Assembly: GCF_000027125.1 (NCBI RefSeq)
Contig: NC_017626.1
Origin: Escherichia coli 042
GTDB taxonomy: Bacteria; Pseudomonadota; Gammaproteobacteria; Enterobacterales; Enterobacteriaceae
Direction: 5' to 3' (one strand)
DNA length: 64,000 nt
Notes under the pieces: model-generated
What the model was told of the DNA's origin: nothing
Databases searched by the model: none
What the model saw: the letters and a program-made list of their open reading frames with translations, nothing else
Shown here: one piece after another, positions 1-5,100 of the stretch
Layout: the number at the start of each line of letters is the position of its first letter
Numbering within the stretch: position 1 is the stretch's first letter
Translations under genes and position numbers: made by a program

Positions 1-159
1 ACCAGACTTAGCGCCTTTCCCAGTGGGCGTAATTGTTACAGACAGTCTGGACATGGACAGCGCGGAGAAACCGGAGCGTACATGTCGTACGTGAGGATTT
101 CGAGCACTGCCCAGGGCCAAACTGGCAAATAAAATAGCCTGATGGGATAGGCTGTTAGC
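1..159 (-). CDS. Partial ORF downstream of glrK running off the window edge; expected gene here is yfhG/qseG but frame and start are unresolved
   Basis: Hand translation of the minus strand: one frame is open across 1-159 and upstream into glrK; another frame has an ATG overlapping the glrK stop (TAATG) but gives only a 47-aa ORF. Not in ORF track. Confidence 0.3.
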
Positions 160-160
160 A

Positions 161-1588
161 TTATTTCGTGTTTTTCGACGACGGCAATTCAATGCGGAAG
201 CAAACGTCTTGCCCGCTCTCGTCGACCAGATACAGTTCCCCTTGCATACGGCGAATACAATCCCTGGCAATGCTTAATCCCAGACCGCTGCCCTTCACCG
301 CCCCTTTTCGCTGGTGGCTTCCCTGAAAAAAGGGTTCAAAGATCATGGCGCGTTCCTCTTGCGGAATGGGTGTGCCTGTATTGATGACATCAATATAAAC
401 CCGCGCGCCATGTAAACTGCTGCGAAGGCAAATGTTACCGGATTCAGTCCCGTAGTGCACAGCATTGGAGTAAAGATTATCCAGTACGCTCATCAGCAGC
501 ATTGGCTCCGCCAGGCAAGCTGTTGCTTGGAGATCGACGTCGGTATGCATCATTTTAGCCCGTGCGGGCAGGCTATGAGCAGAAACTACTGTCTCCACCA
601 GCGGTGCTAATTCAACATTCTCCAGTTCCACCGCACTGTCCGCCTGTTTACGGTTGTAATCAAGCAGTTGTTCGATCAGTTTTTGCAAATTGCGGCTGCT
701 GCTATCGAGGATGCTCACCACCTCTTTTTGCTCTGGCGTAAGCGGCCCGACAACCTGGTCAGCCAGTAATTCAGTGCCCTCGCGCATACTTGCCAGCGGC
801 GTTTTTAATTCATGAGATAAATGTCTTAAGAATTGATGACGTTGGGATTCCAGCCATGACAGGCGCTCACTTAACCAAAGAATACGTTGCCCAACCGAGC
901 GTAACTCGCTCGGTCCACTGAACGAGACACTATTGCCCAGAGAACGCCCTTCCCCCAGCCGGTTGATCATGCGCTCGATATTTTTCACCGGACCGATAAT
1001 CATCCTCGTGAAAAGTAGCACCATCACCAGACTCACCAGAAATAACACCAGCGATTGCCAACCAAAATATTGCCCACGTTCGGCGATTTCACGCTGAAGT
1101 TGCTGCCCACGAGAGAACACCACTGTGCGCGTGGCCTGCACCATTTCGGTATTGGCACTGGCAAAGGCTTCAAGACGCGCGGCGGCGGCGGCATCGGGAC
1201 CACTGTTGTTACACTGAAGTTGGGCCAGATTGTTCAAGTCCTGACGCAATGCCTGGTAAAGTTTATCGTCTGGCAGTACGCCTGCGTGGGCATCGAGCAT
1301 TTCGCTGTAACGCTTGCGCTGGCTTTGATAAACCTTCGCAAGCGTAGGGTCGTCCAGCACGCAATACTGACGGTAGCTACGCTCCATCTCCAGTGCCGCG
1401 TTGGTCATCGCTTCACTACGCCGGGCATCAATAAGCGTAGTGCGGTTAACCAGCGCCGCCTGATCGCTAAGTGCATTCAGGCTTTGCCAGGCTTGCCATG
1501 CCAGCACCAACAGGGGTAGCAGAATCAGCAAAAATGCCAGCATTACCAGTTGTCGTAATGAGCGGGGAAAAACGGGCCAGCGTTTCAA
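161..1588 (-). CDS. glrK: Sensor histidine kinase GlrK (QseE)
   Basis: ORF 161..1651 translation recognised (transmembrane N-terminus, HELKTPLASM H-box, ATPase domain). Start trimmed to TTG at 1588 (..TLKRWPVF..), giving 475 aa. Confidence 0.85.
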   Translation of the reverse strand: MKRWPVFPRSLRQLVMLAFLLILLPLLVLAWQAWQSLNALSDQAALVNRTTLIDARRSEAMTNAALEMERSYRQYCVLDDPTLAKVYQSQRKRYSEMLDAHAGVLPDDKLYQALRQDLNNLAQLQCNNSGPDAAAAARLEAFASANTEMVQATRTVVFSRGQQLQREIAERGQYFGWQSLVLFLVSLVMVLLFTRMIIGPVKNIERMINRLGEGRSLGNSVSFSGPSELRSVGQRILWLSERLSWLESQRHQFLRHLSHELKTPLASMREGTELLADQVVGPLTPEQKEVVSILDSSSRNLQKLIEQLLDYNRKQADSAVELENVELAPLVETVVSAHSLPARAKMMHTDVDLQATACLAEPMLLMSVLDNLYSNAVHYGTESGNICLRSSLHGARVYIDVINTGTPIPQEERAMIFEPFFQGSHQRKGAVKGSGLGLSIARDCIRRMQGELYLVDESGQDVCFRIELPSSKNTK

Positions 1589-2066
1589 GGTGTTACTCTC
1601 GTCAGACGCGAATAGCCTGATGCTAACCGAGGGGAAGTTCAGATACAACAAAGCCGGGAATTACCCGGCTTTGTTATGGAATAAGGCGGTGCCTAACTCG
1701 ACGTTTCGCCCGATGGTTGATATAGCTACGCTGATATCAGAAGTTGGACGGCAGGCACCTTGTTGTGCGTCATTCGAATTTTATGTAGCACGTCCCGAAG
1801 GGGCTGACATAAGTCGGTGAATGAGCCACTGGTTACTATTATGCAGTAACTGTGCCAATAAAGAAAATAGTTTGGTAACGTACTGATTATACGCCGCTTT
1901 GAGGGATTTATGGCTTCTTCGCTATTTGAATGTAAATCAGCCACTGTGTCGCTAAAAAGAGACAACTTAAGATAAACTTATTAGATAATATTAAAATCAA
2001 TAAGTTAAATGTCGCCAGAAAGCGACACGGCACACCACCCATTGTCGTGATTTACAGACACAAAAA

Positions 2067-2088
2067 AGCTCCCGAAGTTGGGAGCTTA
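2067..2088 (-). terminator. Rho-independent terminator downstream of purL
   Basis: GC hairpin aagctccc-gaagtt-gggagctt followed by a T-run on the minus strand. Confidence 0.6.
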
Positions 2089-2109
2089 TAATAGCGGTTG
2101 GTGCTTAAT

Positions 2110-2139
2110 GCCGGATGCGGCGTGAATGCCTCATCCGGG
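2110..2139. repeat. REP / palindromic unit
   Basis: gccggatgcggcgtgaatgcctcatccggg matches the enterobacterial REP consensus; lies just 3' of purL. Confidence 0.7.
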
Positions 2140-2163
2140 CTGCAAAACCAATGGGCTGACGAC

Positions 2164-5100
2164 TTACCCCAACTGCTTACGCGCATTGCGGAAAATGCGC
2201 ATCCATGGGCCATCCTCGCCCCAGTTTTCCGGATGCCAGGAGTTGCTGACAGTACGGAAAACACGTTCCGGGTGCGGCATCATAATGGTGACTCGACCAC
2301 TTTCAGTCGTGACTGCCGTAATACCATTCGGAGAACCGTTCGGGTTAGCCGGGTAGGTTTCAGTGACTTTGCCGAAGTTATCGACATAGCGCAGTGCCAC
2401 CAGCCCTTTGCTTTCCAGTGCCGCCAGATGCGCCGCATCACGCACTTCCACGCGCCCTTCACCATGAGATACAGCAATCGGCATTTGCGAGCCCACCATC
2501 CCCTGCAACAGCAGAGACGGGCTTTGGGTTACTTCAACCAGGCTGAAACGCGCTTCAAAGCGATCGGAGGTATTGCGCACAAAACGTGGCCACAACTCAC
2601 TACCTGGGATCAGTTCGCGCAGATTAGACATCATCTGGCAACCGTTACATACCCCCAGCGCCAGCGTTTGCGGACGGTGGAAGAAGGTTGCAAACTCATC
2701 GCGTACACGGTCATTGAACAGGATAGACTTCGCCCAACCTTCACCGGCACCCAGCACATCACCGTAGGAGAAACCACCGCACGCGACCAGGGCGTGGAAA
2801 TCCTCCAGGCCCGTGCGTCCAGCCAGCAGGTCACTCATATGCACATCGATTGCATCGAAGCCTGCACGGTGGAAAGCAGCCGCCATTTCAACATGCGAGT
2901 TCACGCCCTGCTCACGCAGTACGGCAACTTTCGGACGTGCGCCAGTAGCAATATACGGTGCTGCCACATCTTCGTTGATATCGAACGACAGTTTCACATT
3001 CAGGCCCGGATCGGCGTCGTTGGATTTCGCCTGATGTTCCTGATCGGCACATTCAGGGTTGTCACGCAGGCGCTGCATCTGCCAGGTAGTTTCTGCCCAC
3101 CAGACACGCAACGTGGTGCGGCTTTCGCTGAATACAGTCTGCCCGTTGGCGGTAATCACAAAACGGTCACCGGAAACCGCCTGGCCAACATAATGGACGC
3201 AATCAGCAAGGCCATGCAGTGCCAGTACCGCTTCAACTGCTTTACGGTCAGCGGCTCGAACCTGAATCACCGCACCCAGTTCTTCGTTAAACAACGCCGC
3301 CAGGCGATCGTCACCCAGAGTGGCGATATCCGCGTCAATGCCGCAATGACCAGCAAAGGCCATTTCCGCCAGCGTTACCAGCAGGCCGCCATCAGAGCGG
3401 TCGTGGTACGCGAGCAGCTTACGCTGTGCTACCAGCGCCTGAACCGCGTCATAGAAACCTTTCAGTTGCGCGACGTCGCGTACATCTGCCGGTTTGTCGC
3501 CAAGCTGACGATAAACCTGCGCCAGCGCCGTTGCGCCCAGCGCGTTATTGCCTTTGCCCAGATCAATCAGCAGTAATGCGTTATCTTCGGTAGAAAGCTG
3601 CGGCGTGATGGTGTGACGCACATCTTCCACACGGGCAAATGCAGAAATCACCAGCGACAGCGGCGACGTCATTTCGCGCTCTTCGTTACCTTCCTGCCAG
3701 CGGGTTTTCATCGACATAGAGTCTTTACCCACCGGGATCGTCAGGCCCAGCGCCGGACAAAGTTCTTCGCCCACAGCTTTAACGGCTTCATACAGGCCCG
3801 CATCTTCACCAGGGTGGCCTGCCGCCGCCATCCAGTTGGCGGAAAGTTTAATGCGTTTGATATCGCCAATCTGTGTTGCGGCAATATTGGTTAACGCTTC
3901 ACCGACCGCCAGACGGGCAGAGGCGGCGAAATCCAGCAGCGCAACCGGCGCACGCTCGCCAATCGCCATCGCTTCACCATAGTAGCTGTCAAGGCTGGCG
4001 GTAGTGACCGCGCAGTTAGCGACCGGCACCTGCCACGGACCCACCATCTGATCGCGCGCTACCATGCCGGTTACGCTGCGGTCACCAATGGTCACCAGGA
4101 AAGTTTTCTCCGCCACGGTCGGCAGGTGCAGCACGCGTTTCACCGCGTCAGCAATGGTAATCCCTTCACGAACCAGCGCATCACCCTTCGCTTTCAGCGT
4201 TTGTACTTCGCGGGTCATCTTCGGCGTTTTACCAAGCAGTACGTCCAGCGGCAGATCGATCGGCTGATTATCAAAATGACGATCGTGCAAAGAAAGATGC
4301 AGTTCTTCGGTCGCTTCACCAATCACCGCGTATGGCGCGCGCTCACGCTTACACAGTTCGTCAAACAGCGGTAACTGATCGGCAGCAACCGCCAGCACGT
4401 AGCGTTCCTGGGATTCGTTACACCAGATTTCCAGCGGGCTCATGCCCGGTTCGTCGCTCAGGATATCGCGCAGTTCGAATTTACCGCCGCGCCCGCCGTC
4501 GCTCACCAGTTCCGGCATGGCGTTAGAAAGACCGCCTGCGCCAACGTCGTGGATAAACAGGATTGGGTTGGCATCACCAAGCTGCCAGCAACGGTCGATC
4601 ACTTCCTGGCAGCGACGCTCCATCTCCGGGTTGTCGCGCTGTACGGAAGCGAAGTCGAGGTCGGCATCAGACTGACCAGACGCCATGGAAGACGCCGCGC
4701 CGCCGCCAAGACCGATGTTCATTGCCGGGCCGCCGAGAACGACCAGCTTCGCACCAACGTTGATCTCGCCTTTTTGTACGTGATCGGCACGAATATTGCC
4801 GATCCCGCCCGCCAGCATGATCGGTTTGTGATAACCGCGCAGCTCTTCGCCATTGTGGCTGTTCACTTTTTCTTCATAAGTACGGAAGTAGCCGTTCAGT
4901 GCCGGACGACCAAATTCGTTGTTAAATGCCGCGCCGCCCAGCGGGCCTTCGGTCATGATGTCCAGCGCGGTGACAATGCGCTCAGGCTTACCGAAATCTT
5001 CTTCCCACGGCTGTTCGAAGCCTGGAATTCGCAGGTTGGAAACGGAGAAACCTACCAGACCAGCTTTCGGCTTTGCGCCACGCCCGGTGGCACCTTCATC

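What the first reader, a model, noticed from the sequence alone, without database searches (positions are those of the whole stretch)
1..163. Ambiguous reading frame immediately downstream of glrK at the window edge
An ATG overlaps the glrK stop (TAATG, classic translational coupling) but that frame terminates after 47 codons at 36-38. A different frame is open from inside glrK through position 1 (…AILFASLALGSARNPHVRHVRSGFSALSMSRLSVTITPTGKGAKSG). The expected downstream gene is yfhG/qseG, so this could reflect a frameshift relative to the reference, a sequencing error, or simply a start I cannot place.
Basis: seen in the sequence. Interest (0 to 1): 0.35.

Follow-up and report, generated by a model that had tools for sequence, protein, structure and literature searches.

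The report
Repeat-filled glrK–qseG spacer, no frameshift
The confusing reading frames at the start of the window are not a broken gene: E. coli normally has a 164-base non-coding spacer here, made of a small palindromic mobile repeat inserted between glrK and qseG, and the real qseG start lies five bases outside the window.

Summary
On the minus strand, glrK (qseE) stops at 163-161. An ATG overlaps that stop. Its frame closes at 36-38 after 41 codons, not 47. Another frame stays open to position 1. None of these frames is qseG.

In E. coli K-12 and in strain 118UI, which is identical to the window here, qseG is annotated 164 nt downstream of glrK. Its ATG lies 5 bases beyond window position 1. 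The window aligns to K-12 without any indel, and the spacer is present in 5425 of 5426 complete E. coli genomes. Frameshift and sequencing error are therefore excluded.

The spacer is a 144-bp miniature transposon-like repeat at window 11-154:
- It has about 18-bp terminal inverted repeats and a 3-bp TAA target duplication (8-10 and 155-157).
- It folds into a long hairpin of about -60 kcal/mol.
- It is dispersed across Enterobacterales, with about 5 places per E. coli genome.
- Close relatives carry the exact empty site, ...AATAATGC TAA GTCTGGTGAATATG.

In those relatives the TAATG start codon sits 6 codons upstream of, and in frame with, the qseG start.

The element is most likely the known RSA repeat family. 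I could not check that name against a published consensus. Interest is low.

The parts
161..163 (-). Stop codon (TAA) of glrK/qseE
   Evidence: ORF list and translation. RefSeq annotates qseE at L001 3161-4588, which is window 161-1588.
159..161 (-). ATG overlapping the glrK stop (TAATG). It is a relic of the ancestral glrK-qseG junction and is in frame with qseG.
   Evidence: In the empty-site relative L131 this ATG lies 6 codons upstream of the MRH start, and a gene caller uses it as the QseG start (243 aa). In E. whittamii the frame runs open into qseG.
36..161 (-). 41-codon ORF opened by the TAATG ATG; not a conserved gene
   Evidence: The stop sits at a different place in K-12 (48 codons). 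The peptide is different in Escherichia sp. E4930 because of a 1-nt length change. There is no stop at all in E. whittamii. No Pfam match.
155..157 (-). Target-site duplication, copy 1 (TAA)
   Evidence: Boundaries. Empty sites in L131 and L130 carry a single TAA. Many other copies are flanked by TTA...TTA or TAA...TAA.
11..154 (.). 144-bp palindromic miniature transposon-like repeat (probably an RSA element) that fills the spacer
   Evidence: Alignment with other E. coli copies. 120 or more loci across Enterobacterales. Consensus. Filled versus empty sites. Hairpin fold at z = -4.67 and -3.50. Covariation.
8..10 (-). Target-site duplication, copy 2 (TAA)
1..7 (-). Native qseG leader (GTCTGGT...). 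The GGTGA ribosome-binding site and the qseG ATG continue off the window.
   Evidence: Alignment with K-12 and 118UI...TAAGTCTGGTGAATATGCGACAC. qseG starts at L001 2996 and window position 1 is L001 3001.
137..154 (-). Left terminal inverted repeat (CAGCCTATCCCATCAGGC)
   Evidence: It pairs with positions 11-28 in the fold.
11..28 (-). Right terminal inverted repeat (GCCCACTGGGAAAGGCGC)
126..153 (-). Weak terminator-like motif inside the left end: AGCCTATCCCATCAGGCT followed by ATTTTATTTG
   Evidence: Consensus scan: 5-pair stem. The number of such sites in the region is not above the shuffled expectation (3 found against 2.6).
77..91 (-). Apical hairpin of the element (CGUAC-loop-GUACG)
   Evidence: Fold. 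Pairs at alignment columns 85/99 and 86/98. This is also the 5' part of the sub-threshold Rfam sX9 match at 92-26.

Best explanation
Window 1-160 is the normal non-coding glrK-qseG spacer of Escherichia, not the start of qseG.

In the ancestor the two genes were almost contiguous: ...AAA TAA TGC TAA GTCTGGTGAATATG.... The TAATG ATG lay 6 codons upstream of the qseG start and in frame with it.

A 144-bp non-autonomous palindromic repeat inserted at the TAA trinucleotide and duplicated it. It has about 18-bp terminal inverted repeats and no coding capacity, and it is most likely a member of the RSA (BEE95) family. The insertion pushed the qseG ribosome-binding site and ATG 147 nt further downstream. 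That places them just beyond the window edge, with the A of the ATG 5 bases before position 1.

The 41-codon ORF and the frame that runs off the window are by-products of the repeat's sequence.

Shown here: the coordinates, the absence of any indel, the repeat's anatomy, the filled and empty sites, and the family's distribution and hairpin covariation.

Inferred:
- The element was moved by a DDE transposase supplied in trans; none was identified.
- It is co-transcribed within the glrK-qseG-glrR cluster as a long RNA hairpin.
- At this locus it is mostly a neutral passenger. Its main consequence is that qseG translation must start on its own rather than being coupled to glrK.
For: Gene positions:
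- RefSeq places qseG at L001 2283-2996 and qseE at 3161-4588, with window position 1 at L001 3001.
- K-12 shows the same 164-nt gap.

No indel or error:
- The window-to-K-12 alignment has 10 substitutions and no gap in positions 1-160.
- 5425 of 5426 E. coli genomes hold at least 80% of positions 1-160, and nothing is annotated there.
- Many genomes are 100% identical over window 1-400.

Repeat family:
- Median 5 and up to 8 places per E. coli genome.
- Other copies lie in the ucpA-cysP and hemE-nfi spacers.
- At least 120 loci occur in Escherichia, Citrobacter, Klebsiella, Kosakonia, Erwinia, Pantoea, Yersinia, Photorhabdus, Serratia and others.
- 162 plasmids carry it.

Anatomy:
- Consensus with inverted termini and TTA/TAA duplications.
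- Boundaries in the window.
- All copies but one are intergenic.

Hairpin:
- -60.6 kcal/mol (z = -4.67) on the minus strand and -61.8 kcal/mol (z = -3.50) on the plus strand.
- 95.7% of cells are paired, against 29-45% when partners are slid.
- 13 pairs and 122 cells show changes on both sides, against 4-7 pairs and 6-25 cells in the controls.

Empty sites:
- L131 reads ...AATAATGCTAAGTCTGGTGAATATGCGACAT, and L130, C. koseri, S. enterica and K. oxytoca are likewise empty.
- The site is filled in Escherichia sp. E4930 and E. whittamii.

Neutrality within E. coli:
- The spacer is 93.9% identical between the two E. coli lineages, against 93-95% at third codon positions of the flanking genes.
Against: - The name RSA rests on my memory of the literature (about 152 bp, six copies in K-12) and on a reference title. 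No published RSA consensus could be read.
- No autonomous parent element or transposase with these termini was found.
- There are no transcript or translation data.
- Between Escherichia species the spacer is more conserved (90-91%) than third codon positions (76-85%).
- At another locus, gmhA-yafJ, the core is 87-95% identical across genera while third positions are 57-71% identical.
- Pure neutrality is therefore not established. Some constraint, gene conversion or ascertainment bias from the exact-match scan is involved.
Confidence: 0.93

Rival explanations
1. qseG is frameshifted or mis-sequenced at its 5' end in this genome, so its start is split between two frames within window 1-160.
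Against: - No indel against K-12.
- Identical sequence in many independent complete genomes.
- The intact qseG ATG lies just off the window, and the gene is annotated at full length (237 aa) in the strain that is identical here.
- No part of QseG (MRHIFQRLLPRRLW...) is encoded in any frame of positions 1-160.
Confidence: 0.01
2. The TAATG ATG starts a real product, either a small 41-aa protein coupled to glrK or an N-terminally extended QseG.
For: - The ATG is in frame with qseG.
- In E. whittamii the frame is open all the way into qseG.
- Gene callers use this ATG in empty-site relatives.
- Delihas reported that enterobacterial repeats often carry ORFs (PMC2759123).
Against: - In this window the frame stops at 36-38. 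K-12 stops elsewhere, and E4930 reads a different peptide after a 1-nt length change.
- No Pfam match.
- No annotation in the 40 sampled records.
- QseG is a lipoprotein whose signal peptide and lipobox (..LLGC) must be N-terminal, which is established knowledge. A 55-aa extension would bury it.
Confidence: 0.03
3. The inserted repeat has been co-opted as a cis-acting RNA element of the glrK-qseG-glrR transcript. Candidate roles are an attenuator or partial terminator, an RNase processing site, or a stabilising hairpin. Any of these would set the GlrK:QseG:GlrR ratio differently in Escherichia than in Salmonella.
For: - Very stable hairpin maintained by compensatory changes.
- A terminator-like hairpin with a U-run lies directly after the glrK stop in the transcribed orientation.
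- The element is fixed in E. coli.
- Between species the spacer is more conserved than third codon positions.
- The core is conserved at orthologous sites in other genera.
- Related palindromic repeats, ERIC and YPAL, are reported to affect the mRNA level or stability of neighbouring genes (PMC2229807, PMC2267715).
Against: - Within E. coli the spacer diverges as fast as synonymous sites.
- The family shows no orientation bias relative to flanking genes, 32 against 29.
- Both strands fold equally well.
- The terminator-like motif is weak, and such sites are not more frequent in the region than in shuffles.
- Compensatory changes in inverted repeats can also arise by template-switch correction of quasi-palindromes, without selection (established knowledge).
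Confidence: 0.2
4. The region encodes a small RNA of the Rfam family sX9.
For: A cmscan match at 92-26 on the minus strand: 31.2 bits, E = 0.0033. Other copies of the repeat give similar matches of 31-36 bits.
Against: - Every match is below the family's gathering score of 44 bits.
- The matched part is only the apical hairpin and 3' arm of a larger palindrome.
- No promoter was detected inside the element.
- sX9 was defined in Xanthomonas.
Confidence: 0.03

Closest known systems
RSA repeats of E. coli (also published as BEE95; Bachellier & Hofnung 1996, title seen; counted in the 1997 K-12 genome paper, from memory)
   Same: A dispersed, intergenic enterobacterial repeat of about 150 bp with few copies per genome. 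K-12 derivatives give 6 places.
   Different: I could not compare it with the published consensus. The features worked out here (3-bp TTA/TAA duplication, exact empty sites, a long form with a 62-bp insert, spread to Yersinia, Photorhabdus and Erwinia) may or may not already be described for RSA.
ERIC / IRU (127-bp enterobacterial palindromic repeat)
   Same: A small imperfect palindrome that is intergenic, co-transcribed with neighbours, MITE-like, and folds into a long hairpin with compensatory changes.
   Different: No sequence similarity: ERIC primer sequences find only 7-8-nt chance words. Termini and length also differ.
YPAL / RU-2 (168-bp Yersinia palindromic element; PMC2759123, PMC2229807)
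   Same: An enterobacterial miniature insertion sequence that forms a hairpin, sits between genes, and shows filled and empty sites between relatives.
   Different: The published RU-2 sequence shows no similarity. YPAL has internal inverted repeats and variable 3-26-bp duplications. This element has terminal inverted repeats and a fixed 3-bp TTA/TAA duplication.
Rfam RF02228 sX9 (Xanthomonas sRNA)
   Same: The apical hairpin plus the CUCCGGUU.CUCCGCGC stretch resemble the model.
   Different: Scores of 31-36 bits are below the 44-bit threshold. Only part of the element is covered, and there is no evidence of a separate transcript.
Tight glrK-qseG junction of other Enterobacteriaceae
   Same: The same flanking sequence, TAATG motif and GGTGA ribosome-binding site.
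   Different: Spacers are 1-23 nt in those species, against 164 nt here because of the insertion.

Membership tests
qseG coding sequence (Pfam PF13942 Lipoprotein_20) | Window 1-160 encodes the N-terminus of QseG (MRHIFQRLLPRRLWLAGLPCLALLGC...) | tested here: not met
   None of the three minus-strand frames reads it. The annotated start is 5 bases outside the window.
Frameshifted gene or sequencing error | An insertion or deletion relative to intact reference genomes | tested here: not met
   The alignment with K-12 and 118UI is gap-free. The sequence is identical in many complete genomes.
Miniature inverted-repeat transposable element (MITE) | Terminal inverted repeats | tested here: met
   About 18-bp termini: GAGCCTATCCCATTAGGC ... 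GCCTACTGGGATAGGCTC.
Miniature inverted-repeat transposable element (MITE) | Target-site duplication | tested here: met
   TTA...TTA or TAA...TAA flank many copies. In the window this is TAA at 155-157 and 8-10.
Miniature inverted-repeat transposable element (MITE) | Filled and empty sites between relatives | tested here: met
   L131 and L130 carry the flanks with a single TAA. C. koseri, Salmonella and K. oxytoca are also empty.
Miniature inverted-repeat transposable element (MITE) | Small, multi-copy, without a transposase gene | tested here: met
   144 bp, median 5 places per E. coli genome, at least 120 loci in other species. The ORFs are not conserved and have no Pfam match.
Miniature inverted-repeat transposable element (MITE) | A related autonomous element with the same termini | tested here: inconclusive
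   None was found. The only IS seen next to copies is an unrelated DDE_Tnp_1 element inserted into them.
RSA (BEE95) repeat family | Length of about 152 bp | tested here: met
   144 bp, or 150 bp with both duplicated triplets. The published figure is from memory.
RSA (BEE95) repeat family | About six copies in E. coli K-12, intergenic, enterobacterial | tested here: met
   The K-12 derivative DH10B and other laboratory strains give 6 places. Copies are intergenic. The published figure is from memory.
RSA (BEE95) repeat family | Sequence match to the published RSA consensus | not testable with these tools
   The defining papers are not held.
Rfam RF02228 sX9 | Score at or above the gathering threshold (44 bits) | tested here: not met
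   31.2 bits in the window. 31-36 bits in other copies.
Intrinsic (Rho-independent) terminator | A G+C-rich stem-loop followed by a U-run, with termination in vivo | tested here: inconclusive
   A 5-pair stem plus ATTTTATTTG at 153-126. The count of such sites is no higher than in shuffles. No transcript data.

The most novel reading that the evidence does not exclude
The repeat may be more than a passenger. Its roughly 114-nt core could be a domesticated structured element, an RNA hairpin or a protein-binding site, that is kept by selection after the copy has lost mobility. In Escherichia its insertion between glrK and qseG would then have replaced translational coupling with hairpin-dependent control of QseG and GlrR dosage.

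Hints:
- At the orthologous gmhA-yafJ site in four genera the termini have decayed, yet the core is 87-95% identical while neighbouring third codon positions are 57-71% identical.
- The orthologous ucpA-cysP copy shows six double compensatory changes in its 18-bp outer stem between E. coli and Citrobacter.
Probability: 0.15. Interest if true: 0.4.

Novelty: already known. Interest (0 to 1): 0.12.

Why it matters
Mainly as a caution. Palindromic repeats in operon spacers produce open frames and orphan 'coupling' ATGs that look like damaged genes, especially at a window or contig edge.

They also mislead gene callers:
- A 243-aa or 254-aa QseG is called from upstream ATGs in relatives.
- A 65-aa antisense ORF is called over the repeat in Escherichia sp. 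E4930.

For people who study QseE/QseG/QseF, one point may be useful. Escherichia differs from Salmonella, Citrobacter and Klebsiella in having a hairpin of about -60 kcal/mol between the kinase gene and its partner lipoprotein gene. This could affect their relative expression, but that has not been tested.

Tried and rejected
- **Second copy in the window.** blastn with word size 7 found none.
- **YPAL/RU-2, RU-3 and ERIC.** No similarity.
- **sX9 membership.** Always below threshold.
- **Orientation bias relative to flanking genes,** which would point to a strand-specific RNA role. None: 32 against 29.
- **Strand asymmetry of folding.** None.
- **Small-protein reading.** The ORFs are not conserved and have no Pfam match.
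- **A parent transposon.** The sequence that interrupts three long-form copies in one metagenome-assembled genome is an unrelated DDE_Tnp_1 insertion sequence.
- **A copy in the K-12 gmhA-yafJ spacer.** Absent; REP-type palindromes sit there instead.
- **Literature on RSA/BEE95.** Five searches and one look-up by DOI found only a reference title.
- **Literature on the glrK-qseG spacer.** The papers found describe the gene cluster but not the spacer.

Full report
**What is in the sequence**

glrK (qseE) runs on the minus strand and ends with TAA at 163-161. An ATG at 161-159 overlaps this stop (TAATG). The third frame is glrK itself.

**Where qseG really starts**

A megablast of window 1-400 finds the stretch in 5424 of 5426 complete E. 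coli genomes. More than 25 listed genomes are 100% identical, and only qseE is annotated under the match. In one identical strain (118UI), RefSeq places qseG at locus 2283-2996 and qseE at 3161-4588. Window position 1 corresponds to locus position 3001. K-12 MG1655 has the same layout: qseG at 2688793-2689506 and glrK at 2689671-2691098, a 164-nt gap.

The three-way alignment has no gap. Ten substitutions separate the window from K-12 in positions 1-160. The alignment continues past the window edge as ...TAAGTCTGGTGAATATGCGACAC, which is the MRHIFQ start of QseG. The A of the qseG ATG therefore lies 5 bases beyond the window. Nothing in positions 1-160 is qseG.

**What fills the spacer**

A more sensitive blastn with positions 1-160 gives a median of 5 and up to 8 places per E. 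coli genome, with no annotation under any listed match. Other copies lie in the ucpA-cysP and hemE-nfi spacers, and a truncated copy lies on a plasmid.

The hits come from Escherichia, Citrobacter, Klebsiella, Kosakonia, Raoultella, Erwinia, Pantoea, Yersinia, Photorhabdus, Serratia symbiotica, Leminorella, Buttiauxella and others, often with many copies per genome. The element is also on 162 plasmids.

The copies share these features:
- The common form is a 144-bp unit, (TTA)GAGCCTATCCCATTAGGC...GCCTACTGGGATAGGCTC(TTA). It has about 18-bp inverted termini and is flanked by a direct TTA or TAA triplet.
- A longer form carries an internal insert of about 62 bp.
- In the window the element is at 11-154 and the duplicated TAA is at 155-157 and 8-10.
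- All sampled copies but one are intergenic, and many abut the stop codon of the upstream gene.

**Proof of insertion**

In a close relative whose QseG is 89% identical to K-12, the junction reads ...AAGAAATAATGC TAA GTCTGGTGAATATGCGACAT. These are the E. coli flanks with a single TAA and no element. A second relative (78% identical), C. koseri, S. enterica and K. oxytoca also have spacers of only 1-23 nt. Escherichia sp. E4930 and E. whittamii carry the element, with spacers of 163 and 164 nt.

In the empty-site genomes the TAATG ATG lies six codons upstream of the MRH start and in frame with it, and a gene caller uses it as the QseG start. It is a relic of the ancestral junction, separated from its gene by the insertion.

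**The open frames are not genes**

- The TAATG frame stops at 36-38 in the window.
- It stops at a different codon in K-12.
- It reads a different peptide in E4930 after a 1-nt length change.
- It has no stop at all in E. whittamii.

Stop-free frames are a property of one strand of the repeat family: 37, 29 and 10 of 77 copies for its three frames, against none on the other strand. Neither window peptide matches Pfam.

**Structure**

Both strands of the spacer fold into one long imperfect hairpin: -60.6 kcal/mol (z = -4.67) and -61.8 kcal/mol (z = -3.50).

On an alignment of 77 distinct copies:
- The consensus hairpin is paired in 95.7% of cells, against 29-45% when partners are slid.
- 13 pairs and 122 cells changed on both sides, against 4-7 pairs and 6-25 cells in the controls.
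- No shuffle reached the observed values.

Two cautions apply. The alignment comes from copies selected by an exact 23-base pattern. Compensatory changes in inverted repeats can also arise through selection for transposition, or through template-switch correction of quasi-palindromes (established knowledge), not only through an RNA function.

**Does it do anything here?**

Arguments for a passive passenger:
- There is no orientation bias relative to co-directional neighbours, 32 against 29.
- Both strands fold equally well.
- Within E. coli the spacer is as diverged (93.9% identity) as third codon positions of glrK and qseG (93-95%).

Arguments for some constraint:
- Between Escherichia species the spacer is 90-91% identical, against 76-85% at third positions.
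- At the orthologous gmhA-yafJ site of Kosakonia, C. braakii and two unnamed Enterobacteriaceae, the termini have decayed. The core is still 87-95% identical while third positions are 57-71% identical.
- The orthologous ucpA-cysP copy differs between E. coli and Citrobacter by six double changes that preserve its outer stem.
- A weak terminator-like hairpin with a U-run lies right after the glrK stop in the transcribed orientation. Such motifs are no more frequent in the region than in shuffles.

I therefore rate co-option as possible but unproven, at about 0.2. The one safe functional inference is that qseG translation in Escherichia cannot be coupled to glrK termination as it can be in relatives.

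**Comparison with what is known**

The size (144-150 bp), the copy number (6 places in K-12 derivatives) and the intergenic enterobacterial distribution fit the RSA repeats, also published as BEE95. I know these from the 1990s literature, and their name appears in a reference title. I could not read a consensus to confirm the match.

The element is not ERIC, YPAL/RU-2 or RU-3. Its central part gives only sub-threshold matches to Rfam sX9, at 31-36 bits against a threshold of 44. The papers on the glmY-glrK-yfhG-glrR cluster describe the gene order but do not discuss the spacer.

**Verdict**

This is an ordinary, already annotated arrangement seen at a window edge. The frameshift and error options are wrong.

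Noticed in passing
window 1683-1830 (-): The glmY small RNA gene lies upstream of glrK as expected (Rfam GlmY_tke1, 147 bits, E = 2.9e-34).
   Followed up: yes
window 2066-2150: REP-type palindromes (aatgccggatgcggcg...) lie between purL and glmY, with a sub-threshold naRNA4 match at 2083-2140. A terminator-like hairpin sits at 2087-2066 (-) after purL.
   Followed up: no
window 161-1651 (-): The mechanical ORF for glrK starts at a TTG (496 aa). RefSeq annotates 475 aa (window 161-1588). The purL ORF is likewise over-extended, to 1331 aa.
   Followed up: partly
L078 988-1400 (E. whittamii); L131 325-1056; L126 2001-2765: In E. whittamii the TAATG frame is open through the whole repeat into qseG, which invites an N-terminally extended QseG call. 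In relatives without the repeat, gene callers start QseG at upstream ATGs, giving 243 and 254 aa instead of 237.
   Followed up: partly
L128 1903-2100 (-): In Escherichia sp. E4930 a 65-aa gene with no Pfam hit is called on the opposite strand, across the repeat and the qseG start. It is probably a spurious call caused by the repeat.
   Followed up: no
L004 1410-1569 vs L096 7609-7768; L005, L069, L071: Orthologous copies keep the same insertion site but have diverged outer arms that still pair. The ucpA-cysP copy shows six double changes between E. coli and Citrobacter. The hemE-nfi group has its own compensated arm variant.
   Followed up: partly
L020, L122, L103, L082, L125, L067 (gmhA-yafJ spacer); L132 1623-1827: A copy with decayed termini but a conserved core sits between gmhA and yafJ in Kosakonia, C. 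braakii and two unnamed Enterobacteriaceae (core 87-95% identical, third codon positions 57-71%). K-12 has REP-type palindromes at that site instead.
   Followed up: partly
L033 11375-11533 (downstream of glnA): Another E. coli copy lies next to glnA and appears polymorphic. Only 993 of 5425 genomes cover at least 80% of a 321-nt query around it.
   Followed up: no
L012, L014, L021 (MAG CTSoil_132), contig ends; L133 2501-3158: Three long-form copies are interrupted at the same internal point (CCTTTAGG|CTGAGGGATCCCC...). The interrupting sequence is an insertion sequence whose transposase matches DDE_Tnp_1 (E = 2.2e-8). It is common on Salmonella, Shigella and E. coli plasmids. This may be a target hot spot inside the repeat; it is not the repeat's parent.
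   Followed up: partly
L009, L010-L019, L037, L089, L098-L100, L110, L114-L116, L119, L120, L123: A long form of the repeat, about 62 bp larger, has a conserved internal insert (CACACAAAATG...GAACGCCGCTTGCGGCGGCCCTTTAGGGCGAGCGAAGCGAG). It gives sub-threshold matches to Rfam AaHKsRNA22.
   Followed up: no
P0002: A 411-aa predicted protein contains a full QseG (98% identity over 100% of the query) plus 174 extra residues. Its origin is not examined; it could be a fusion or a mis-called ORF.
   Followed up: no
L087 (Serratia symbiotica): A truncated copy of the repeat directly abuts an ERIC-like sequence (...GACTGGGGTGAGCGAAGC...). Two repeat families are nested in one spacer.
   Followed up: no
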